From the IMG/VR virus record IMGVR_UViG_2778261087_000003: a stretch of 64,000 bases of DNA, one strand, 5' to 3'. Positions within the stretch are counted from its first letter, which is position 1. Each line of letters starts with the position of its first letter. A program made the translations under genes and the position numbers. Below are positions 26,718-39,091 of the stretch, in pieces. Source of the stretch: a virus. Its lineage: Duplodnaviria > Heunggongvirae > Uroviricota > Caudoviricetes. The notes beneath the pieces are model-generated. The model searched no databases. It was not told where the DNA came from and saw nothing but the letters and a program-made list of their open reading frames with translations.

Positions 26718-29700
26718 ATGAACAAGCTATCTATGGGGGTGTTTCGCTGTTCAAGTGTCAGCGAAATATTGAAATACATTAGGGCAATAACATCTCACCG
26801 AGCGCCGATTAAATACGGCGTGGAAAAGGTGGAAGGCAAAAGCTATGACCGACTGCGCCGGGAGGCGAATCAGAAGGCGATAGATTTGCTTAATTCGCTG
26901 GTGGACGGCGCGACACTGACAGATGAACAGCGCCAGATCCTGGCTGGGTACACCGGTGAAGGCGGCATTGGCGGGTCCGTCTCCGAATATTACACACCAA
27001 AGCCGATCGCTGAAGGTGTCTGGGAGATCATGAAGCTCTACGGCGCGGACGTAGGTAACACTCTGGAACCATCGGCGGGCACCGGCGTTTTTAATGAGAC
27101 AAAACCGGTTGGTACGGTGATGACCGCGACTGAGATCAGCAGTGTTTCCGGTCGTATAAACCAGCTGTTACATCCGGAAGACAGCGTACAGATTTCCCCG
27201 TTCGAACAACTGGCTGTAAGCACGCCTAACGATTCATTCGACCATGTTGTGGGTAACGTTCCGTTCGGCGGTCGTGATAACACACGCAACATCGATAAGC
27301 CTTACGCAGAAGAAACGGACATGGGTTCTTACTTCATGCTCCGCATGCTGGACAAGATAAAGCCAGGCGGATTCATGTGCGTGATTGTGCCGCCGTCCAT
27401 TGTTTCAGGTTCAAACATGAAGCGGTTACGCCTGCGCCTATCACGGAAAGCTGAATTTCTTGGTGCCCACCGCTTGCCTACCGGTACTTTTGATGCTAAC
27501 GGGACCAGTACGGTCGTAGATGTGGTGCTGATGCGCAAACATCCGGCAGAGATGGCTGAGAAAATCCCCCTGGTGGATGAAGGCACTCTTGAATCGGCAA
27601 ATGTGCTTTGGCCAACGTTTATTTCTGGCAAGTGGTTCGAAAAGGATGGCCGCCGGTTTGTTCATGGCACCCAGGAGAAGGGATTCCAGGGGCGTATTGA
27701 GGTTCGTGCCGACGGGCAGATTGATAACCAGGCTCTTAAAGCGAAGCTGATTCATCGTTTCGAAAGCCGTATCGACTGGTCTTTGCTTGATATGGCTGAA
27801 CCGTCACCGACCGCAGACGTTGTTGATGAAGGGGAAATGCGCCTGATTAATGGCGTATGGCAAAAATATGCTGGTGGTCGCTGGATTGAAGCTGATTCTG
27901 GTAAGGAGCTTAAGATTGATGCTGCCAGTTATGGCGCGGATAGCTGGGAGGCTCTTCAGCGTAACCTGACTACCACTGAAGGCCGTCTCGGCATGACATT
28001 TACCCAGATGGCAAATGTCCGCGATAAGTACACCACATCAATCAGCGACGATATGGTGCAGCTGGTGGACTGGATTAACAGCCAGCCTGAAAAATACCGT
28101 GAACGCTTGTATCGCGGGGCGATGATTGGCCGGATGTTAATTGAATATCAGGACATGAAGGCCGCCGGGCATAGTGCTGAACAAATCGAACAGCAGCGCC
28201 TTTCTCTGGTATCCCGTTTGCAAGCAGAGATTGACCGTTTTGGTAACCCCGGTCGCGGTCCGATAGCGAAATTATCGGGAAGCGGTGCGCGCGCCTGGTT
28301 TGCTTTCCGTGGTGCAATTAAGCTGGATGGCACTATTTCTGACGAGCTGACAGGAAAGCTGGTTACGCATGATTCCAGCGCCAGTTATGACTCCACCAGC
28401 TATCAGGACACCCTGCGTTATCTCTATAGCGATCTTACCCGCGATCCAATCCAGCTCGATGATTTCCGCCTTGCGTTTACCGGCGGACTGCCAGCCAGTG
28501 ATGAAGAGTTGCTTAATTTATTGGCCAGCACCCCTGGTATTGCGGTTTCACCGTATGGCGGGATTGTTCCGTTCGCCCGCGCCACCAGCGGCGACATTAA
28601 CGAGATAGTGGCTCCAAAACAGGAATTCCTTTCCACACTCCCCGACGGTCCAGTAAAGAACAACGTCCTTAATCAGTTGGCAGCGATCGAAGAGAAGCGC
28701 ATCAAGACGCCAGCAGAGAATATCCGCTTTAAGCTCAATAGCCGTTGGTTCGACCGTTCCGTCATTCTGGAGTTTTTGCAGGAAAACGGCTATCCGGATC
28801 TGCGCTATGTGCAGTCAGTGCAGCTGGAAGGCGACGAAATGGTTTCTGACACCTATCACGGTGGTGATGGTCTGTTCGTCGGGCACCGATACGGTGTCGT
28901 CCAGCGCAAGGATAAAGAAACAGGTGAGATCCGCTACGAGTGGGACCGTAAATCAGGTGAAAACGCGACCGGGTTCCCGGCACAGCTGGAAAAGTATCTC
29001 AATGGTGCGCGTATCGGTGGCAAAGATAGCGCGACGGCGAACGGCTATCGTGAGCAGATGGCACTGCTTGAGGACCAGTTCAATAAGTGGATCAAGACGC
29101 ACGATCGCTACGATGAGCTGGTTGCCAAATACAACGATGTTTTCAATAGCAATATTCCGTATGAACACTCTGGTGATCCGCTTGGGTTGAAGGGATTAAG
29201 CGGTAAGCGTCAGCCATTTGATTACCAGAATAGCGAGGTGCGCCGACTGTCCGAAGATGGGCGCGGCATCCTGGGCTTCGGCACCGGGCTGGGTAAAACC
29301 ACGACCGCGCTGGCACTTGAGGCGTTCAACTATGAGAACGGTCGCTCCACCCGTACTGCGTATGTAGTGCCTAAATCAGTGCTGGAAAACTGGTATTACG
29401 AAGCAAAAGAATTCCTGAGTGAAGAGGCATTCAGTAACTACCTGTTCGTCGGTCTTGATGTGCTGATGGATGGCGATCAGATTCGCCAGGTGCCGGTGCT
29501 CGATGAGAACGGTAAACCTGTTCTTGGTGCTGATGGCACTCCAGTTATGCGCGATGCTCTTAAGCTGGCAGATGAAGCCACTATCACGGCGCGGATGAAT
29601 GCGATCCCGCACTCAAATTACCGTGCAGTCGTGTTTACCAAAGAACAATACGCCCGCATTCCGCTACGTGATGACACCGTAGATGAGCATGCACAAGACA

Positions 29701-32700
29701 TGCTTTATGACTTCGTTGCTGCCGGACGTGTGGCCAGCGCAATGGATTCCGATTCCCATCGCAAAGAGGCGGCGCGTCGCCGGGTATTGTCGGAGTATTC
29801 AGATACCGGTACCGAAAAAGCAGAGAAGTATCCGTACTTTGAGGATATGGGCTTCGACAGCGTGATCGCCGACGAAGGCCACAACTACCGCAATAGCTAT
29901 AAAAATGGTCGCGAAGCGTCACAACTGGCCTATCTGCCCACCAGCGCGGTGGCGCAATCGGCGCGGGATATGGCAATTAAAAACGCGTACCTGATGAAAA
30001 AGAATGGCGGGCGCGGACCGGTTCTCCTGACTGCAACGCCAGTCGTTAACACCCCGATCGATGCATACAACATGCTTTCTCATGTTCTGCCGAAGGAATA
30101 CTGGCAGAAGATGGGGATCTACGGTCCTGATGACTTCGTTAAATTCTTCGGCAAGACCAGGCTGGAAACGGTACAGAAAATCAGCGGTGAAGTTGAAGAA
30201 AAAATGGCGCTGGTGGGCTTTGAAAACCTTGATGCGCTGCGCGGCATATTCCATCGCTGGACAACGCTTAAAACGGCGGAAGACGTTAAGGATACCGTGG
30301 AGATCCCGGAACTGGACGAACACCAGCAGGATGCACCACTTACTGAAGAACAACTGGCGGCGTATGAAGAATTACGTCAGCAGGCGGAAGCGGCAGCAAA
30401 AGCCAACAATGGCGTAACGACCTCGGTCAATGAAGACGGCGTGATTGAGCACGAGAAAGCCCGTCCGATCTTCTCAATAATCAGGGATATGGACCGCGTA
30501 TGTACTGACATGGACCTGTACTATCGCCGGATCACCTATCGTTTCCTGCCGGAGTACGCCGATGCGGTGCAGCAGCTGGCGGACAGTTTGCCTAAACAAG
30601 CCACCAGCGAAGACGACGACAGTGATGATTCAATCACGCAGCAATCGCAATACTCCCTGATAGATAAGGGCGAGTTTATTCAGTTGCAGGTTCCGGAAGC
30701 GTTCGAGCAGGAAGTGAATAAGCGCCTGGCCAGGTTTGGCATTGACGAACAGACCGTAACTCACCCCGTTACACCCAAATACGCGAAGCTGATCGCCACG
30801 CTGAAGGAGTTTTTCCCGGAAGGTAAGCAAATCATCTTCACGGACGAAAAAACGCAGCACCAGAAGCTCAAGCGCATTATCTGCAATGCTCTTAACCTTG
30901 AACCTTCAAAGGTGGGGATCCTGAATGCTCAGACGGTTGCCGAGGCAGGTAAAACCGGTAAGAAACTGAAAGCGGTTAAACCGCCGAAAGAGTTACCGGA
31001 TGAACCAACAGATGCACAGATAGCGAAATACAACGAGCAAATGGCTCTGTATGACGCCTATATCGCGCAGCAAAATGAAATGTCGTTGGGCGGTCTGGAA
31101 AAGATTGCAGCCGACTTCCAGGAGGGCCGGACTCCGATCATCATCTGCAACAAAAAGGCAGAGGTGGGTATCAACCTGCATCGAGGAACGACTGACATCC
31201 ATCATCTGACGTTGCCGTGGACTCCAGCCAGTATCGCACAACGTAACGGTCGCGGTGCCCGAGTTGGCTCCAACCGTGCAAGCGTTCGCGTTCACTACTA
31301 CTGCGGCAAGGGTTCTTTCGATGAATACCGACTGAAGACGCTGAAGCGTAAAGCAGGCTGGATCTCCGATATCCTCCGTTCAGATAAGTCAGAAATGGAG
31401 AACGCCGACGCCAACGATATGATCGAAATGCAGATGTATACCGCTAAGGATGATGGCGAACGTCTGGCAATGATGCAGGTTCAAATGGATAAGGCGAAAG
31501 CCGCGCAACGCGCTCGCCAGAAAGAACAGGCTACTATCGACCTTCAGAACTACATCAAGGCGCAGCACGCAGCTGGCGAGGATGTGGAGGTACTTACCGC
31601 TGAATTAGAGCGAAGCAAAGCGGAACTTGAAAAGACCACCGCCGAGGTAGCTAAATTCAAACAGGCGGTAATGGCCAAAGCAGCTGATAACGCAGACTGG
31701 AAAGCCCGCTGGGGTAGCGTCCATCACACAGACCGTACGTTGTTAGCACAGTATCGCGCGTCGTTGAAAAGCGCCATTCAGCGCAAGGCTAATATCTCTC
31801 AAGCCATCTCCCGCTATGAGAAATTATTGAACCGTACTCAGAAGGCCGCGACGGATATCAAACGCCTGCGCCCGCTGGTGGAGGATGCAATAAATAAAGG
31901 CATTCTGGATGTTGATCCTGACCTGGTTAACCATGCGAGTGAGTTCCTTGTTATCGGCGATCGCTCATGGCGTGTAGGCCAATACTACGATTGTGCCGGT
32001 GATATCGTTCGCATTAAGTCGCTGGACTTCGACAGCCAGCGCGCAGACGTGGAGATTATCTTTACCTTCAAAGGTACCAAATCGGGTAACTGGGATGTGA
32101 AGACGCTGGATAAACAGGTTGATGTAACTCCCGATGAAGATGCTGTTATGCAGAAAATCAGTGGCGGCGTCTCCATCGCCGGGATTAACGACATCATTTC
32201 CTGTGACGATTTCTACCGTTTCCAGCAGCGCGGCATGATCAAAATCACTGACTCATACGGCGTTCAGACTACAGAGTCAGGCTATAGCATTGATTTTGTT
32301 GGTACCTATACGGACCCACTGAAGCATGCGGTTTACCCGGATCGCCGTGACGGCGCGCTGAAGTCGTCAATTGCAAAATGGGTGCTTGGTATGATGTCGG
32401 AAGGGAATAACCGCCAGATCCGTTCGGCAGAAACATTCCTGGTTGAACTGTTTGGCTCCAATTATGGCGATGTAATCGCGTCATACGGAGATACGCTATC
32501 CCCTGAAGCAATTCAGGAGAAAATAGCGGATGCGATCGCCAGAATGCCGGAAAAAACAAGCCAGGGGGCTACTCGTAACGGGGATTCTGAACTTGAAGTC
32601 ACCAATGCCATTTTCGGTACCAATGAGTTCCGGGCGTCAGATTATGAGATCACCACAGCACAGTTTGGCACCATTGGCATTTACAGTAATAAAGACGAGA

Positions 32701-33485
32701 TCAAGCAGGCAATGGACGCAGCAAGTGCGCGCATTGCAGCAGAACGGAAAGCCAATCTGAATCATGCAGTCGCCGCGCTGACTCAATCGTGGGTAACAGC
32801 AATCAGGGAGGCCGCCACCACAGGGAAAATCACACCTGCAATAGCGGATGTCGTAAACGACGGCTCTAAATTTATGGATGCCTATCAAATGGATGCGGTG
32901 AAGTTGCCATCAGCCTATGGTCAACTCAGCTATCGCATGACCTACAACCTGGTATCAATGTTTTCCGACCTTGCCATCCTTGGGCTGGTGGATCTTAACG
33001 AGGTTACGCCGGAATTGCTCAGCATGCGCAAGAATCATGTGGAGATATTGCAGAGAATTAACACGGTTCTTGCCGGGCGCACCGATGAAGAGAAACAGGC
33101 CGACGCTGATCGGATAAACCTGGCCCTTGGCAACATCACAGAGGAAGAGATTGCCGCCAGAAACGAGAAACAAGAAGAGTTATCATCAATACAGGGTGAT
33201 GCCACCAGCATAGCTCAGTCTCTTGGTCTGAATTATCGCGTATCCACCGCCGACCTGAAGATGATGTACGCACCAAAATTCGCCGCTGGCGAGGTATTTG
33301 GGCTTCAGGAAGCCTCAGGCATGAAAGGCGTTCTTTTCCGTGCGAAAGACGCAATCAAGGCGAAATTCGGCGCTCGCTGGCTGCCAGCGAAGGCGAAGAA
33401 CAGCGATTTCCCGGGTAACTGGTGGATTATCGAGACAAAACACAACGTGGCGGACGTTCTGGCCGTCATCCAACAATACGCATAA
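26718..33485 (+). CDS. darB: DarB antirestriction protein (methyltransferase plus SF2 helicase domains)
   Basis: 2255-aa ORF; MTase-like N-terminus, helicase Walker A GFGTGLGKT and DEGH box. Confidence 0.9.
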   Translation: MNKLSMGVFRCSSVSEILKYIRAITSHRAPIKYGVEKVEGKSYDRLRREANQKAIDLLNSLVDGATLTDEQRQILAGYTGEGGIGGSVSEYYTPKPIAEGVWEIMKLYGADVGNTLEPSAGTGVFNETKPVGTVMTATEISSVSGRINQLLHPEDSVQISPFEQLAVSTPNDSFDHVVGNVPFGGRDNTRNIDKPYAEETDMGSYFMLRMLDKIKPGGFMCVIVPPSIVSGSNMKRLRLRLSRKAEFLGAHRLPTGTFDANGTSTVVDVVLMRKHPAEMAEKIPLVDEGTLESANVLWPTFISGKWFEKDGRRFVHGTQEKGFQGRIEVRADGQIDNQALKAKLIHRFESRIDWSLLDMAEPSPTADVVDEGEMRLINGVWQKYAGGRWIEADSGKELKIDAASYGADSWEALQRNLTTTEGRLGMTFTQMANVRDKYTTSISDDMVQLVDWINSQPEKYRERLYRGAMIGRMLIEYQDMKAAGHSAEQIEQQRLSLVSRLQAEIDRFGNPGRGPIAKLSGSGARAWFAFRGAIKLDGTISDELTGKLVTHDSSASYDSTSYQDTLRYLYSDLTRDPIQLDDFRLAFTGGLPASDEELLNLLASTPGIAVSPYGGIVPFARATSGDINEIVAPKQEFLSTLPDGPVKNNVLNQLAAIEEKRIKTPAENIRFKLNSRWFDRSVILEFLQENGYPDLRYVQSVQLEGDEMVSDTYHGGDGLFVGHRYGVVQRKDKETGEIRYEWDRKSGENATGFPAQLEKYLNGARIGGKDSATANGYREQMALLEDQFNKWIKTHDRYDELVAKYNDVFNSNIPYEHSGDPLGLKGLSGKRQPFDYQNSEVRRLSEDGRGILGFGTGLGKTTTALALEAFNYENGRSTRTAYVVPKSVLENWYYEAKEFLSEEAFSNYLFVGLDVLMDGDQIRQVPVLDENGKPVLGADGTPVMRDALKLADEATITARMNAIPHSNYRAVVFTKEQYARIPLRDDTVDEHAQDMLYDFVAAGRVASAMDSDSHRKEAARRRVLSEYSDTGTEKAEKYPYFEDMGFDSVIADEGHNYRNSYKNGREASQLAYLPTSAVAQSARDMAIKNAYLMKKNGGRGPVLLTATPVVNTPIDAYNMLSHVLPKEYWQKMGIYGPDDFVKFFGKTRLETVQKISGEVEEKMALVGFENLDALRGIFHRWTTLKTAEDVKDTVEIPELDEHQQDAPLTEEQLAAYEELRQQAEAAAKANNGVTTSVNEDGVIEHEKARPIFSIIRDMDRVCTDMDLYYRRITYRFLPEYADAVQQLADSLPKQATSEDDDSDDSITQQSQYSLIDKGEFIQLQVPEAFEQEVNKRLARFGIDEQTVTHPVTPKYAKLIATLKEFFPEGKQIIFTDEKTQHQKLKRIICNALNLEPSKVGILNAQTVAEAGKTGKKLKAVKPPKELPDEPTDAQIAKYNEQMALYDAYIAQQNEMSLGGLEKIAADFQEGRTPIIICNKKAEVGINLHRGTTDIHHLTLPWTPASIAQRNGRGARVGSNRASVRVHYYCGKGSFDEYRLKTLKRKAGWISDILRSDKSEMENADANDMIEMQMYTAKDDGERLAMMQVQMDKAKAAQRARQKEQATIDLQNYIKAQHAAGEDVEVLTAELERSKAELEKTTAEVAKFKQAVMAKAADNADWKARWGSVHHTDRTLLAQYRASLKSAIQRKANISQAISRYEKLLNRTQKAATDIKRLRPLVEDAINKGILDVDPDLVNHASEFLVIGDRSWRVGQYYDCAGDIVRIKSLDFDSQRADVEIIFTFKGTKSGNWDVKTLDKQVDVTPDEDAVMQKISGGVSIAGINDIISCDDFYRFQQRGMIKITDSYGVQTTESGYSIDFVGTYTDPLKHAVYPDRRDGALKSSIAKWVLGMMSEGNNRQIRSAETFLVELFGSNYGDVIASYGDTLSPEAIQEKIADAIARMPEKTSQGATRNGDSELEVTNAIFGTNEFRASDYEITTAQFGTIGIYSNKDEIKQAMDAASARIAAERKANLNHAVAALTQSWVTAIREAATTGKITPAIADVVNDGSKFMDAYQMDAVKLPSAYGQLSYRMTYNLVSMFSDLAILGLVDLNEVTPELLSMRKNHVEILQRINTVLAGRTDEEKQADADRINLALGNITEEEIAARNEKQEELSSIQGDATSIAQSLGLNYRVSTADLKMMYAPKFAAGEVFGLQEASGMKGVLFRAKDAIKAKFGARWLPAKAKNSDFPGNWWIIETKHNVADVLAVIQQYA

Positions 33486-33491
33486 CAGGAG

Positions 33492-33509
33492 CGCCCGGTT
33501 CGCCGGGCG
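33492..33509 (+). promoter_or_regulatory. stable UUCG-loop hairpin between an SD and the ulx start codon
   Basis: cgcccgg-ttcg-ccgggcg; AGGAG at 33487-33491, ATG at 33519. Confidence 0.35.
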
Positions 33510-33518
33510 TCGCATAAT

Positions 33519-33959
33519 ATGGCCACACTATCTGATACAATAAAACCGAATAAAACATATCTTGAGGCGGTACTCCGTACAGCGTTGTTAGGAAAGACAG
33601 AAGACGAATACGTTGATTTCTTCCTGTCAGGGCTACGCGGGCGATTACTGAAAAATCCCCGCCTGTACCGCAGCTACGGCCCATACTGGCCGGAAATTAA
33701 AAAATTATTACTGGAGCGCGGTTATGGTAATTTCGGTCGTCTCGTTGACCGTGACGTTCGCAAAATTTACCGTTATGACCGCCCGGCGCTGACGCTCATA
33801 GCCGCGACGCTCTACAGCCAGGAGCGTTTTGATAATGGTCAGATATACTCAGCCTGGCATTTACTGCCTGTGCCTGAAGAGGTTGACGACCAGGACTATG
33901 AGTTTGAGTCTTACGATTTGGAAGTTGAAGCCTTAGCACAGGCTGGAGAGAAAACTTGA
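33519..33959 (+). CDS. ulx: Ulx
   Basis: 146-aa ORF between darB and lxc; synteny. Confidence 0.55.
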   Translation: MATLSDTIKPNKTYLEAVLRTALLGKTEDEYVDFFLSGLRGRLLKNPRLYRSYGPYWPEIKKLLLERGYGNFGRLVDRDVRKIYRYDRPALTLIAATLYSQERFDNGQIYSAWHLLPVPEEVDDQDYEFESYDLEVEALAQAGEKT

Positions 33960-34204
33960 AAAAGCGATACTACACAGTAAAGCATGGGACGCTACGAGCA
34001 TTACAAGAGTTTGCTGACAAGCATAACGTTGAGGTGCGCAGGGAAGGGGGAAGTAAAGCTCTGCGCATGTACCGCCCGGACGGGAAATGGCGGACGGTCG
34101 TCGATTTCAAAACTAACAGCGTTCCCCAGGGCGTCCGTGACCGGGCATTCGAGGAATGGGAGCAGATCATCATAGATAACGCATTGCTCCTGAATGCTGA
34201 TTAA
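33956..34204 (+). CDS. lxc: Lxc/Bof, modulator of C1 repression
   Basis: 82 aa, start overlaps ulx stop; sequence and length as I recall for P1 Lxc. Confidence 0.7.
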   Translation: MKKRYYTVKHGTLRALQEFADKHNVEVRREGGSKALRMYRPDGKWRTVVDFKTNSVPQGVRDRAFEEWEQIIIDNALLLNAD

Positions 34205-34208
34205 GAAC

Positions 34209-34237
34209 TCTCCGGCCTAGGGAGATTAGGCCGGAGA
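34209..34237. terminator. 10-bp-stem hairpin between convergent lxc and the SIR2-like gene
   Basis: tctccggcct-agggagatt-aggccggaga; AT-rich flanks. Confidence 0.4.
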
Positions 34238-34245
34238 TAAATATA

Positions 34246-35550
34246 CTATATAAACTTAGATATAATATCGTGAATCTGTTGTAGCGGGATTTCTTCCATC
34301 TTACTCTTAATAAGAGAGCGGTTAGATGCTGTCAGTGAAGGCCATTTTGTTTTCCAGGCTAGATATGCTCGCCATGAGTAGCCTGTTTCGTAAGGTTTAT
34401 TCATATAAGTCATTGAGTGTTCAACCGCATGTATGTATTTTTTCTCAAAGTTGGTTCCTTTTACTTCAAATAAACTACCGAAATAAATAAGCCATTTTGC
34501 CAGGTGTTCATACTGCTCCCATGCGCCAGACTCTTTAGTAAGATCTATTTTTTTATCTATTATATCACAAAAAACATTTAATACCTTTTCATCATTCCAG
34601 CTATATCCAGATGATGAAATGGAGGAAATGATATGATAAAAAGAATCCTCTAACTTCAAGAACTCTATTTTATACTCTCTTCCGTTTTTTATTACCGATT
34701 TGATTGAGTGCCTCAATTTGTCTTTTATTTTTTTTGCTTCTGGAATTTTCTTGTTAAGTTTTCTAAAGAAATCAGACACCTCTGTTTTATCTATAACCCT
34801 AATCCCAAAGCAGGAAAAATAGTAATCTTTAATAGGTTGCAATAGTTTCCCTCGGGAAATAAGGAAAATATTGGAGGACATTACGTTGTCCCGTGAAAAT
34901 ACCTTATATTCATTTATAATCGCCTTGAGGTTCGCGTCACTTAGAGAATAGCCAAGAATAACAATAGTGTTTTCATGTAGAACTGTGCTTAGTTTATTTG
35001 AAAAGTAAGAATTACCATTTATAAATCTGAAATAATCCTCGCTAGTAACAACCATATCTGATGGGGAGTCTATAGAGCCGTGAACATGGTAGACTTTAAC
35101 CTCACAATTATATTTTGGAATTGGCAGGCCGGGGGTGATTGTACACGTTCGATTCTCTCCAGCCAGTTTTTCTGCTAACTTGTCATAATTTGTCGTAATT
35201 ACTTTAAATGTGTTTTCTTTGAAAAAGTCTTGAATATATTCAATTGATGGATCAAGTTCGATTGAGGCTATGATTTTCTCAATCTCCTGGTAAATATTTT
35301 TCCCCGAAAGTATAAATTTTAGTGCAATAACCTGAGCTGCCTCTTCAAGGCTAAGGTCTTTTGCTTTTCCATCAGGAAATAATTCCTCTTTGAGTGAGTC
35401 ACCATCCTTCAATAAACCGCACAGTTGCTCCAATAAAGATTGCCAACTTGGGGCTTTATCATCAGAAACAGCCTTTGAAAATCCAGTGCCTGTAAGAAAG
35501 CACAGCCTATGTGTAGCTGCTGCATAGGCAATTTCTATATACTCGCTCAT
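34246..35550 (-). CDS. SIR2-like protein (SIR2_2 family), candidate NAD-dependent anti-phage defence protein
   Basis: 434 aa; N-terminal CFLTGTGFSKAV, TTNYD (N121/D123) and VHGS (H157) motifs typical of defence-type SIR2 domains; markedly AT-rich gene; GGAG SD 7 nt upstream of ATG. Confidence 0.75.
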   Translation of the reverse strand: MSEYIEIAYAAATHRLCFLTGTGFSKAVSDDKAPSWQSLLEQLCGLLKDGDSLKEELFPDGKAKDLSLEEAAQVIALKFILSGKNIYQEIEKIIASIELDPSIEYIQDFFKENTFKVITTNYDKLAEKLAGENRTCTITPGLPIPKYNCEVKVYHVHGSIDSPSDMVVTSEDYFRFINGNSYFSNKLSTVLHENTIVILGYSLSDANLKAIINEYKVFSRDNVMSSNIFLISRGKLLQPIKDYYFSCFGIRVIDKTEVSDFFRKLNKKIPEAKKIKDKLRHSIKSVIKNGREYKIEFLKLEDSFYHIISSISSSGYSWNDEKVLNVFCDIIDKKIDLTKESGAWEQYEHLAKWLIYFGSLFEVKGTNFEKKYIHAVEHSMTYMNKPYETGYSWRAYLAWKTKWPSLTASNRSLIKSKMEEIPLQQIHDIISKFI

Positions 35551-35606: not shown

Positions 35607-36248
35607 TTATAGATAATTTCCTTTTCCTGTTAATACTCCCTTAGGCACCTGTTTTTGTGCCAGCGTTTGGGTTCCGCGAATTATGTTAATCAGAGGGCTT
35701 AGTAACGATGGTTCCTGGCGTGCCTCAACTTCTCCAGCCATTGCCCTGATGTAGTCTGCGCTGGCAACGTTGTTGTATTCCGTCGCAAAGCAACATAGTA
35801 ACGTCAGAACATGCTCTGTCGTTATTTCGCTCCAGTTGATGTTGAAAAATTCATCGCCTTTTTTGTCGTGTTCGGAATCGAAGATGCTTTGGTGGAGGAT
35901 GTATTTGCCGGATTCTTTGCGCGGTAACTTGATCGCTTTCTGGCGTTCCAGCTCCTTGTAAATCTGCATTGCCTCAATTAGTACCGGCCTGCCGTTCATG
36001 AAGGGATCGCGCAACCTTACACGCTGGCCAACTCGTCCAGTAATAAAGCTGTTTTCCTCTTCCACCAGCACGATAAAACCCTTTTCCTCTTTTTCTCGCA
36101 ATTCGCGCAGCAGCTGGAGTTCCATATCGCGGCGGCGTTCAGGGTAGCTGGTCCGCTCAGCCATTATCAGCTCGTTATTGATCCATGCAGCAGTCATTGA
36201 CGCCGGTTTGCCGACGCTCATCGAAACAACGCATATTTTCTTATCCAT
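35607..36248 (-). CDS. mat: Mat-like protein (particle maturation)
   Basis: Start taken at internal ATG (MDKKICVV...) with G-rich SD; the longer ORF reaches 36359; synteny next to ref. Confidence 0.5.
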   Translation of the reverse strand: MDKKICVVSMSVGKPASMTAAWINNELIMAERTSYPERRRDMELQLLRELREKEEKGFIVLVEEENSFITGRVGQRVRLRDPFMNGRPVLIEAMQIYKELERQKAIKLPRKESGKYILHQSIFDSEHDKKGDEFFNINWSEITTEHVLTLLCCFATEYNNVASADYIRAMAGEVEARQEPSLLSPLINIIRGTQTLAQKQVPKGVLTGKGNYL

Positions 36249-36437
36249 AGCGCCCCCTACAAAAAAGAAAAGCCACCAGCGGCGGCTTAGCAATACAACT
36301 GAAGGTAGCGCCCGGTACTCAGACTGTGCCGTCCATGGAATATTTGAAAAGGGATCCATCCGTACCGGGCGTGTGATGATTCTGACTGAAGTAACTTGTC
36401 AGTTGTCAATCATTTATCATTAAAAATAATATATTTA

Positions 36438-36998
36438 TTAGTGCATGATGTTTGCCATCTCATAGGCGTCAGCCAGCAACTCCATCTCTGACTTGTTCAG
36501 CAAGGTGAATTCTTTCTTGCCTCCAACCACACCATCGGCATGGACAGGGACCAGCCAGGGGTATTTTTCTCTTACTTCAGCCGGTGCTGCATGCTGGTGG
36601 TGCCATCTACAAAGGGGCAATTGCTTTTTGTGACAACCCGGCGCGGTACGACCGGAGATATGGTGCAGAGATACCTCTTCAGATATTACTCCATGCATAT
36701 AGCAGGCAATGCAGGGGAGAGCGCCAAGAGCATTGGCGATGCTCCGTTCCTCCGCTGTCGGTGTTCGCCCCTTCAAGCCACGAGATTTTATCTTTACCGC
36801 ACTTTTCCGCGTTTTGCTGGCTGGTGGGCGCTCTTTCTGTTTAGCGATACGGCGGTCGATAGAATCCCGCATTTTCTGATATTGCGATTCTCGCCAGGCG
36901 GGGTCAGCCAACTTTTCCCGTTGCCGAGCGATAGCTCGTTCTCTGGCTGCCTTCTGCCACTTGCGGCACTGTTCAATTTTTTGTTCGTTTGTTTTCAT
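36438..36998 (-). CDS. ref: Ref, recombination enhancement function (HNH nuclease)
   Basis: 186 aa, MKTNEQKIEQCRKWQKAARERA...; HNH-type Cys/His motifs. Confidence 0.9.
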   Translation of the reverse strand: MKTNEQKIEQCRKWQKAARERAIARQREKLADPAWRESQYQKMRDSIDRRIAKQKERPPASKTRKSAVKIKSRGLKGRTPTAEERSIANALGALPCIACYMHGVISEEVSLHHISGRTAPGCHKKQLPLCRWHHQHAAPAEVREKYPWLVPVHADGVVGGKKEFTLLNKSEMELLADAYEMANIMH

Positions 36999-37003
36999 AT
37001 GGC

Positions 37004-37030
37004 AAAAAAAAAGGCGGCCTAATGGCCGCC
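37004..37030 (-). terminator. rho-independent terminator directly upstream of the ref start codon
   Basis: Minus strand ggcggcc-atta-ggccgcc followed by T9; ends 5 nt before the ref ATG. Confidence 0.55.
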
Positions 37031-39057: not shown

Positions 39058-39091
39058 ATAACTTCGTATAATGTATGCTATACGAAGTTAT
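39058..39091 (+). other. loxP: loxP recombination site
   Basis: Exact ATAACTTCGTATA-ATGTATGC-TATACGAAGTTAT. Confidence 0.97.

What the first reader, a model, noticed from the sequence alone, without database searches (positions are those of the whole stretch)
33486..33521. UUCG-loop hairpin inserted between a Shine-Dalgarno and the ulx start codon
AGGAG (33487-33491) follows the darB stop, then an 18-nt hairpin cgcccgg-UUCG-ccgggcg, then 9 nt, then the ulx ATG. With the hairpin folded the effective SD-to-AUG spacing is ~9 nt; unfolded it is 27 nt. This looks like structure-dependent translational coupling, or alternatively a 3' stabiliser for the darB message.
Basis: seen in the sequence. Interest (0 to 1): 0.35.

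Follow-up and report, generated by a model that had tools for sequence, protein, structure and literature searches.

The report
Hairpin-bridged ribosome binding site of ulx
In this P1-type phage a small, very stable RNA hairpin sits between the ribosome-docking sequence and the start codon of the ulx gene, and comparison with relatives suggests it folds away 18 bases so the two signals come close enough to work, as already shown for two phage T4 genes.

Summary
The order is darB stop (33483-85), AGGAG (33487-91), hairpin CGCCCGG-UUCG-CCGGGCG (33492-33509), a 9-nt spacer, then the ulx ATG (33519). The window is a P1-like phage. Folding this one sequence is only weakly significant (z -1.0 to -1.8). 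The comparative evidence is strong. Among 36 distinct darB-ulx junctions from P1-like phages and plasmids, 30 share the same layout: GGAG-type SD touching the stem, a 6-9 bp GC-rich stem, a 3-5 nt loop, a 7-9 nt A/U-rich spacer, then AUG. These 30 use at least 10 different stem sequences and about 20 different loops, and 97% of stem cells remain paired. No usable SD lies after the hairpin. Four junctions from a nested clade lack the hairpin and have an ordinary SD 5-8 nt from AUG, and two Vibrio outgroup junctions have the usual order hairpin, SD, AUG. There is no U-tract, so it is not a terminator. Best reading: a constitutive split (noncontiguous) ribosome binding site of the T4 gene 25/38 type, 27 nt reduced to 8-9 nt. 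The UUCG loop is incidental. Classical coupling by RBS sequestration is not supported, and reinitiation cannot be excluded. This is a new member of a known kind. It is untested experimentally and of moderate interest.

The parts
26718..33485 (+). darB coding sequence (2255 aa), the upstream cistron. Its stop TAA is at 33483-33485.
   Evidence: ORF list. It is 97.7% identical to the annotated P1 darB/ulx/lxc region.
33487..33491 (+). Shine-Dalgarno AGGAG of ulx, 1 nt after the darB stop and directly abutting the stem.
   Evidence: Sequence. It is the best anti-SD hybridisation site in the junction, -6.6 kcal/mol against +1.8 for anything in the spacer. A GGAG-type site sits at the same place in 28 of 30 hairpin-bearing variants, and SD positions show 0 of 5 variable sites within the P1 clade.
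33492..33498 (+). 5' arm of the hairpin (CGCCCGG). G33491 may add a G-U pair with U33510.
   Evidence: Pair probabilities are 0.88-1.0.
33499..33502 (+). Loop UUCG, with a G-C closing pair. It is not conserved.
   Evidence: Loops in relatives include UUAG, CGCG, CACG, AUGU, CGAA, GAAG, CGGAG, GUAA, AGUC, GUGA and AACC.
33503..33509 (+). 3' arm of the hairpin (CCGGGCG).
   Evidence: The only stem polymorphism in the P1 clade is C33508 to U, which keeps a G-U pair on the + strand RNA (L010).
33510..33518 (+). Single-stranded spacer UCGCAUAAU (9 nt) between the stem and AUG. It contains no SD.
   Evidence: Spacers are 7-9 nt in all 30 hairpin-bearing variants.
33519..33959 (+). ulx coding sequence (146 aa), the downstream cistron whose initiation region this is.
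   Evidence: The N-terminus is conserved from Met1. Ulx was detected in P1 virions by mass spectrometry (PMC9024508).

Best explanation
The element is a split (noncontiguous) ribosome binding site on the darB-ulx polycistronic mRNA. The SD AGGAG lies immediately after the darB stop codon. An 18-nt G+C hairpin of about -15 kcal/mol, folded essentially all the time, loops out the intervening bases. The SD-anti-SD helix and the AUG then sit about 8-9 nt apart instead of 27 nt, and a 30S subunit can use them together. The hairpin acts as a constitutive geometric adaptor, not a switch. It is far too stable to melt physiologically, its loop sequence is free to vary, and it does not mask the SD or the AUG.

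Shown here: the anatomy, its stability in silico, its conservation with compensatory changes, the absence of any other SD, and the contiguous RBS in hairpin-less relatives.

Inferred: that ribosomes really initiate this way (by analogy with T4 genes 38 and 25, where it was shown by mutation and probing), and that ulx is read from the darB transcript. The P1 record annotates no promoter between the predicted PdarB promoter upstream of darB and the ulx start, and none is predicted in the 1 kb upstream of ulx in this window.

Not resolved: whether the initiating ribosome is a fresh 30S or the one that has just terminated on darB.
For: The hairpin is present in the MFE and centroid structures, with pair probabilities of about 1 in 120-350 nt contexts, here and in 10 other stem variants.

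From about 215 loci there are 36 distinct junctions, and 30 have SD, then a 6-9 bp stem, then a 3-5 nt loop, then a 7-9 nt spacer, then AUG. They use at least 10 different stems: CGCCCGG, GCCCGA, GCGCCCC, GGCCCAG, CGGCCCC, CGGCCUC, CUGCCCC, UGGCCUGG, GCCGGGC and UUGCCGGA.

RNAalifold recovers the helix, and 3 of its 6 pairs show double compensatory changes. In the pair count, 97% of cells are paired and the covariation score is 0.435, against 0.111 in shuffles (0 of 500 reach it) and at most 0.06 when the partners are slid.

Within the P1 clade the variable positions are SD 0/5, stem 1/14 (G-C to G-U), loop 4/4 and spacer 8/9, Fisher p = 1e-5.

The best anti-SD site abuts the 5' side of the stem in 28 of 30 variants. 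In 28 of 30 spacers the best anti-SD site is no better than -0.9 kcal/mol. In L214 and L215 the spacers carry AAGG/AGGA (-2.9 and -5.6 kcal/mol), but only 2-3 nt from the AUG.

Hairpin-less relatives (L004, L005/L100, L007) have UAAGGA-type SDs 5-8 nt from the AUG. Vibrio relatives have the conventional order hairpin, SD, AUG.

There is no U-tract on either strand. The P1 record annotates no promoter between PdarB and the ulx start, and the scan of window 32500-34500 finds no + strand promoter-like site. Ulx protein is made (PMC9024508).

Precedent: T4 gene 38 goes from 22 to 5 nt and gene 25 from 27 to 11 nt. Both were verified by mutation, lacZ fusions and DMS probing, and show the same pattern of close relatives with the hairpin and distant ones without it (PMC3014915; PMC7297116).
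Against: There is no experimental evidence for P1 ulx; everything here is comparative or by analogy.

The single-sequence folding z-score is unremarkable (-1.0 to -1.8).

Compensatory evolution shows the helix is needed once the SD is upstream of it. It does not show why the hairpin exists, because hairpin-less lineages work without one. Entrenchment of a neutral or otherwise-selected insertion would leave the same signature.

In P1 itself the SD is predicted to be partly paired with distant segments, with an unpaired probability of 0.27 in one context.

The stem is identical in many variants of the P1 clade, so independent covariation events are fewer than the 30 variants suggest.
Confidence: 0.68

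Rival explanations
1. The hairpin is primarily an mRNA stability or processing element. It would act as a 3'-to-5' exonuclease barrier protecting the long darB message, or as a stabiliser after cleavage. On this view the split SD arrangement is merely tolerated, an 'accommodated' RBS.
For: It is a G+C-rich hairpin without a U-tract, sited a few nt after a stop codon, which is where stabilisers lie. Hairpin-less relatives translate ulx without it, so bridging is not intrinsically required. This is compatible with the best explanation as a second function.
Against: It does not predict that the SD is always 5' of the stem and touching it. It also does not predict a spacer of always 7-9 nt, or the absence of any SD after the stem in 30 of 30 variants. 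The usual stabiliser order of stop, hairpin, SD, AUG is seen only in the Vibrio outgroup. No 3'-end data exist.
Confidence: 0.14
2. This is translational coupling. One version is that ulx is translated only when ribosomes translating darB open a structure that masks its SD and AUG. The other is that the terminating ribosome itself, held by the stop-adjacent SD, reinitiates at the AUG that the hairpin brings near.
For: The SD lies 0-11 nt after the darB stop in all variants and overlaps UAA in several. In P1, some contexts predict that GGA 33488-90 pairs with UCC 33469-71 and that AUG pairs with 33464-66 inside darB. A darB ribosome would open such a structure. There is no separate promoter for ulx.
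Against: The hairpin itself does not sequester the SD or the AUG. The predicted long-range partners of the SD change with the length folded: 33573-76 in one context and 33469-71 in another. In most relatives the SD is 0.6-0.9 unpaired. A ribosome terminating at UAA would cover the SD and open the base of the helpful hairpin. Reinitiation is not addressed by any data here.
Confidence: 0.12
3. It is a DNA-level palindrome, serving as a protein-binding or recombination site, or a decayed terminator or chance hairpin with no present function.
For: The sequence is a perfect DNA palindrome, and the minus-strand RNA also folds at -15.8 kcal/mol. One deletion derivative (pO26_98E11_1) has an end point in the 3' arm. 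The same CGCCCGG stem occurs next to Ulx proteins of two different clades.
Against: Stem sequence is not conserved across clades; only pairing is, so it cannot be a sequence-specific site. G-U wobbles (P1 base pair, L010, L215) pair only in + strand RNA. There is no U-tract on either strand. It is single-copy in the window. Chance is excluded by covariation.
Confidence: 0.04

Closest known systems
Phage T4 gene 25 translation initiation region at the gene 26-25 intercistronic junction (Nivinskas et al. 1999; Malys & Nivinskas 2009; reviewed in PMC3014915)
   Same: The SD and AUG are 27 nt apart in the linear sequence, at an intercistronic junction of a phage structural operon. A stable hairpin between them reduces the distance to a functional one (11 nt in T4, 8-9 nt here). 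Close relatives keep the hairpin and more distant relatives lack it and have an ordinary RBS.
   Different: The sequences are unrelated, as are the phage family (Punavirus versus Tevenvirinae) and the genes. The P1-type stem is a short perfect all-G/C helix. The T4 case is proven by mutagenesis, lacZ fusions and DMS probing, while this one is not. Here the covariation is much richer, with at least 10 stems.
Phage T4 gene 38 split RBS (Gold 1988)
   Same: A hairpin separates the SD from the AUG (22 nt reduced to 5 nt) and enhances initiation.
   Different: The spacing after folding is shorter in T4. The sequences are unrelated, and T4 gene 38 has experimental support.
E. coli thrS split RBS with operator hairpin, and the rpmE noncontiguous TIR (PMC7297116)
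   Same: The ribosome binding site is interrupted by a stable stem-loop that the 30S subunit tolerates.
   Different: In those cases the hairpin is a binding site for an autoregulatory protein and its sequence and bulges are conserved. Here the loop and stem sequences are free to vary, which argues against a protein operator.
Intrinsic terminators and intercistronic stabiliser hairpins (REP-like)
   Same: A G+C-rich stem-loop lies just downstream of a stop codon.
   Different: There is no U-tract. It is not repeated elsewhere in the window. The SD lies upstream of the hairpin rather than downstream of it.

Membership tests
Split / noncontiguous RBS with intervening hairpin (T4 gene 25/38 type) | The SD is too far from the start codon in the linear sequence (more than about 13-15 nt). 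| tested here: met
   27 nt from AGGAG to AUG, and 24-30 nt in 30 related variants.
Split / noncontiguous RBS with intervening hairpin (T4 gene 25/38 type) | A stable local hairpin fills the interval and leaves the SD and AUG outside the helix. | tested here: met
   7-8 bp helix at -15.6 kcal/mol with pair probability 0.88-1.0. Only G33491 can join the helix, through a G-U pair.
Split / noncontiguous RBS with intervening hairpin (T4 gene 25/38 type) | With the hairpin closed, the SD-AUG distance falls in the functional range. | tested here: met
   8-9 nt here and 7-9 nt in all 30 variants. Hairpin-less relatives have 5-8 nt. T4 has 5 and 11 nt.
Split / noncontiguous RBS with intervening hairpin (T4 gene 25/38 type) | There is no alternative SD at canonical distance from the AUG. 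| tested here: met
   Anti-SD duplex scan: here the best spacer site is +1.8 kcal/mol. In relatives it is no better than -0.9, except L214 and L215, where the site is only 2-3 nt from the AUG.
Split / noncontiguous RBS with intervening hairpin (T4 gene 25/38 type) | The helix is maintained by compensatory change in relatives. | tested here: met
   At least 10 stems, 97% of cells paired, covariation 0.435 against 0.111 in shuffles (0 of 500) and at most 0.06 when slid.
Split / noncontiguous RBS with intervening hairpin (T4 gene 25/38 type) | Stem-disrupting mutations lower translation, compensatory mutations restore it, and the structure is present in vivo. | not testable with these tools
   This needs reporter fusions, toeprinting and DMS/SHAPE probing.
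Intrinsic (Rho-independent) terminator | A G+C-rich hairpin is followed immediately by a U-tract. | tested here: not met
   The tail is UCGCAUAAU on the + strand and CUCCUGUUA on the - strand. The terminator scan does not call it. Relatives have A-rich tails.
Translational coupling by RBS sequestration | The SD and/or AUG of the downstream gene is paired in a conserved structure that upstream translation must open. | tested here: not met
   The hairpin excludes the SD and AUG. The predicted long-range partners of the SD differ with context, and the SD is mostly unpaired in relatives. Reinitiation-type coupling was not tested.
Extra-stable C(UUCG)G tetraloop motif | A UUCG loop closed by a C-G pair and conserved as such. 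| tested here: not met
   The closing pair is G33498-C33503. About 20 other loops are seen in relatives, including UUAG within the P1 lineage.
Known RNA families (Rfam 15) | A match to a curated covariance model. | tested here: not met
   The only hit is a chance-level one on the other strand at 33229-33251, E = 7.9.
Repeated palindromic elements (REP-like) | Multiple copies in the genome. | tested here: not met
   There is one exact copy. Two 3-mismatch matches are at chance level, with 2.3 expected.
Programmed ribosomal bypass (T4 gene 60 type) | Matched take-off and landing codons, a stop after take-off, a hairpin at the gap, and the reading frame continuing after landing. | tested here: not met
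   GCA-UAA occurs at 33480-85 and again at 33512-17, flanking the hairpin. However, a stop follows the landing codon, so no new product would result, and the repeat is absent from all other lineages.

The most novel reading that the evidence does not exclude
The hairpin is more than a passive bridge. Together with the stop-adjacent SD it would form a termination-reinitiation device that sets the Ulx:DarB ratio. The ribosome finishing the 2255-codon darB would be held by the SD 1 nt past the stop and handed to the AUG that the refolding hairpin swings into place. In the P1 lineage specifically, it could even hop between the duplicated GCA-UAA motifs at 33480-85 and 33512-17 that bracket the hairpin, terminating 1 nt before the ulx AUG. 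That would be a structure-mediated mode of intercistronic ribosome transfer not described before.
Probability: 0.06. Interest if true: 0.75.

Novelty: new member of a known kind. Interest (0 to 1): 0.38.

Why it matters
Natural split ribosome binding sites are textbook curiosities known mainly from two T4 genes. This would add a case in another model phage, P1, in the operon for its anti-restriction proteins DarB and Ulx. It comes with a rich natural data set: at least 10 covarying stems, plus sister lineages that lack the hairpin and have a contiguous RBS. That constrains the geometry a ribosome accepts (SD flush with the stem, 7-9 nt to AUG). It is useful for RBS-strength predictors and gene callers, which would score ulx as lacking an SD. 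It also matters for anyone engineering P1 phagemids around darB, ulx and lxc. It does not reveal a new principle.

Tried and rejected
- **Intrinsic terminator.** Rejected: there is no U-tract on either strand and the scan does not call it.
- **Known RNA family.** No Rfam hit.
- **Repeated or mobile palindrome.** It is single-copy in the window.
- **Special UUCG tetraloop.** The closing pair is wrong and the loop is not conserved.
- **Wrong start codon.** Rejected: the ATG at 33519 is the first start in the ORF, and Met1, Thr3, Leu4 and Asp6 are invariant in homologues down to 47% identity.
- **Other SD-hairpin-start arrangements in the window.** Only ulx qualifies. The hit at 2884-2910 lies inside a 1006-aa ORF.
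- **Precise deletion between the CGCATAA repeats.** Not found in viral contigs.
- **Mosaic or recombination break at the hairpin.** This was suggested by truncated plasmid matches. The two examined are a darB deletion and an IS3 insertion, so they are uninformative.
- **MAFFT alignment of the junctions.** Two divergent stems were mis-registered in the first attempt. A later alignment was adequate for 6 of the 7 pairs.
- **Literature.** The P1 genome paper (PMC523184) is not held. Searches found no description of this hairpin. That covers only the held library.
- **Pfam for Ulx.** No match.

Full report
**What is there.** The window is a P1-type phage or plasmid prophage. The region 33300-34250 is 97.7-98.7% identical to phages P1, P7, SJ46 and RCS47, where the genes are annotated darB, ulx (olxA in P7) and lxc. 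Every coordinate in the finding is right:
- darB ends with TAA at 33483-85.
- AGGAG is at 33487-91.
- CGCCCGG / TTCG / CCGGGCG occupy 33492-98 / 33499-502 / 33503-09.
- A 9-nt spacer (33510-18) follows, then the ulx ATG at 33519.

The ATG is the true start. It is the first start codon of the ORF, and Met1, Thr3, Leu4 and Asp6 are invariant in Ulx homologues down to 47% identity. Ulx is a real protein, detected in P1 virions (PMC9024508), and is part of the Dar anti-restriction system (PMC12810830).

**Is it more than chance?** RNAfold places the 7-bp helix in the MFE and centroid structures, with an optional G33491-U33510 extension. The energy is -17.1 kcal/mol for 42 nt, and pair probabilities are 0.88-1.0 whether 120, 200 or 350 nt are folded. 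Perfect all-G/C stems of this size occur 4 times in the window against 0.43 expected. The other three are terminator-like. The single-sequence z-scores are weak, however (-0.98 and -1.77), because the segment is so G+C-rich. This sequence alone would not be convincing.

**Comparative evidence.** I collected the darB-ulx junction from about 215 loci (phage records, plasmids, genome, viral and metagenome contigs). They reduce to 36 distinct junction sequences.

Thirty of the 36 have the same architecture. A GGAG-type SD sits flush against the helix (0-2 nt away). The helix is 6-9 bp and G+C-rich, with a loop of 3-5 nt. A 7-9 nt A/U-rich spacer follows, then AUG.

The stems differ between lineages:
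- CGCCCGG/CCGGGCG (P1, JK004, Pantoea, Salmonella)
- GCCCGA/UCGGGC
- GCGCCCC/GGGGCGC
- GGCCCAG/CUGGGCC (Citrobacter)
- CGGCCCC/GGGGCCG (Salmonella pYU39_89 type)
- CGGCCUC/GAGGCCG
- CUGCCCC/GGGGCAG
- UGGCCUGG/CCGGGCCA
- GCCGGGC/GCCCGGC
- UUGCCGGA/UCCGGCAA

About 20 different loops occur, and UUCG becomes UUAG even within the P1 lineage.

RNAalifold recovers the helix with double compensatory changes at 3 of 6 pairs. On that alignment 97% of cells pair. The covariation score is 0.435, against 0.111 in column shuffles (0 of 500 reach it) and at most 0.06 when partners are slid by 1-3 columns.

Within the P1 clade alone the variable positions are SD 0/5, stem 1/14 (a G-C to G-U change that pairs only in + strand RNA), loop 4/4 and spacer 8/9, p = 1e-5.

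An anti-SD hybridisation scan puts the best site directly 5' of the stem in 28 of 30 variants. It finds nothing usable in the spacers: the best sites are no better than -0.9 kcal/mol, except two that lie 2-3 nt from the AUG.

**Natural controls.** A clade of relatives (L004, L005/L100, L007/L008) has no hairpin. There the SD follows the stop codon and lies 5-8 nt from the AUG (UAAGGAUUUUGACAAUG, UAAGGGACUACUAUG). Two Vibrio P1-like plasmids have the conventional order of hairpin, SD, 6-8 nt, AUG. On a rough NJ tree of Ulx the hairpin-less clade is nested among hairpin-bearing ones and Vibrio is the outgroup. The arrangement is therefore old in the enterobacterial group and was lost, or never gained, in one clade.

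**Mechanism.** The layout matches the split or noncontiguous RBS established for T4 gene 38 (22 reduced to 5 nt) and gene 25 (27 reduced to 11 nt, at the 26-25 junction). For gene 25, destabilising mutations lowered initiation, and lacZ fusions and DMS probing confirmed the structure. Close relatives had the hairpin and distant ones did not (PMC3014915; PMC7297116).

Here the numbers are 27 reduced to 8-9 nt. At about -15 kcal/mol the helix is constitutive, so I read it as an adaptor rather than a switch or thermometer. The free variation of loop and stem sequence argues against a protein operator of the thrS type.

ulx probably has no promoter of its own. The P1 record annotates a predicted PdarB promoter upstream of darB and the lxc promoters inside ulx. 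No + strand promoter-like site is found in 32500-34500. That ulx is read from the darB transcript is an inference from this.

**Rivals.**
- **Terminator.** It fails on the U-tract.
- **Pure 3' stabiliser.** It does not predict SD-before-stem, the fixed 7-9 nt spacer, or the lack of a downstream SD. It may still be a side benefit.
- **Coupling by sequestration.** This is not supported. The helix excludes the SD and AUG, and the predicted distant partners of the P1 SD change with context and are not conserved.
- **Reinitiation by the terminating ribosome.** It is neither supported nor excluded.
- **DNA-level site.** This is unlikely, because only pairing is conserved, not sequence, and the wobble pairs work only on the + strand RNA.

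One caveat applies to the main reading. Covariation proves that the helix is needed given an upstream SD. It does not explain why the hairpin arose, and entrenchment of an insertion would look the same.

**Verdict.** The geometry holds; the UUCG loop and classical coupling do not. This is a new member of a known kind with unusually good comparative support and no experimental test. I found no description of it in the searchable literature, and the P1 genome paper could not be read.

Noticed in passing
window 33479-33485 and 33511-33517: A 7-nt direct repeat CGCATAA brackets the SD plus hairpin. The first copy is the last darB codon plus TAA, and the second ends 1 nt before the ulx ATG. It is present only in the P1 lineage; relatives have other spacers. 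Deletion between the repeats would give TAA-T-ATG with no SD, but that product was not found in viral contigs. It may be a relic of a local duplication or a coincidence.
   Followed up: partly
window 33956-33959: The ulx stop TGA (33957-59) overlaps the TTG start of lxc (33956) as TTGA, a classic overlap-type coupling junction. The P1 record also annotates three sigma-70 lxc promoters inside ulx.
   Followed up: no
window 34246-35550 (-) and 35607-36359 (-): Downstream of lxc, where P1 carries the EcoP1I mod/res genes, this window has a 434-aa SIR2_2-domain protein (Pfam E = 1.6e-23) and a 250-aa ORF with no Pfam match. This looks like a different defence cargo in the same variable slot.
   Followed up: partly
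window 34209-34237: An 11-bp hairpin (TCTCCGGCCTA...TAGGCCGGAGA) lies between the convergent lxc and SIR2-like genes. The scan calls it terminator-like on the minus strand.
   Followed up: no
window 36438-36998 (-) and 37013-37030: A RecA-dependent nuclease (Ref) homologue (Pfam E = 4.8e-50). It is preceded on its own strand by an all-G/C 7-bp hairpin, GGCGGCC-ATTA-GGCCGCC. By my reading of the overlapping + strand ORF translation, a T-run follows it. The DNA was not read directly and the region was not scanned for terminators.
   Followed up: no
window 39058-39091: The loxP site ATAACTTCGTATA-ATGTATGC-TATACGAAGTTAT turned up in the hairpin scan as 13-bp inverted repeats with an 8-bp spacer.
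   Followed up: no
L232 (NZ_AP027182.1, pO26_98E11_1), about 395-420; L090 1-45: A P1-like plasmid has nearly all of darB deleted. The 5' part of darB is joined to the 3' arm of the hairpin (…CGACTACGCCGGACGTGAAATAATATG), so ulx sits behind a truncated junction. Contig L090 also breaks inside the 5' arm. The G+C palindrome may be a preferred rearrangement end point.
   Followed up: partly
L223, L224 (IMG/VR contigs) versus window: The exact P1 stem CGCCCGG/CCGGGCG, with 5-nt loops, occurs next to Ulx proteins of a different clade (the Citrobacter olxA-like branch). This suggests either deep ancestry of this stem or exchange of the junction between lineages.
   Followed up: no
L212, L214, L215, L183, L103, L188 junctions: Several non-P1 lineages have GNRA tetraloops (GUGA, GCAA, GUAA, GAAA) in the equivalent hairpin, whereas the P1 clade loops look unconstrained.
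   Followed up: no
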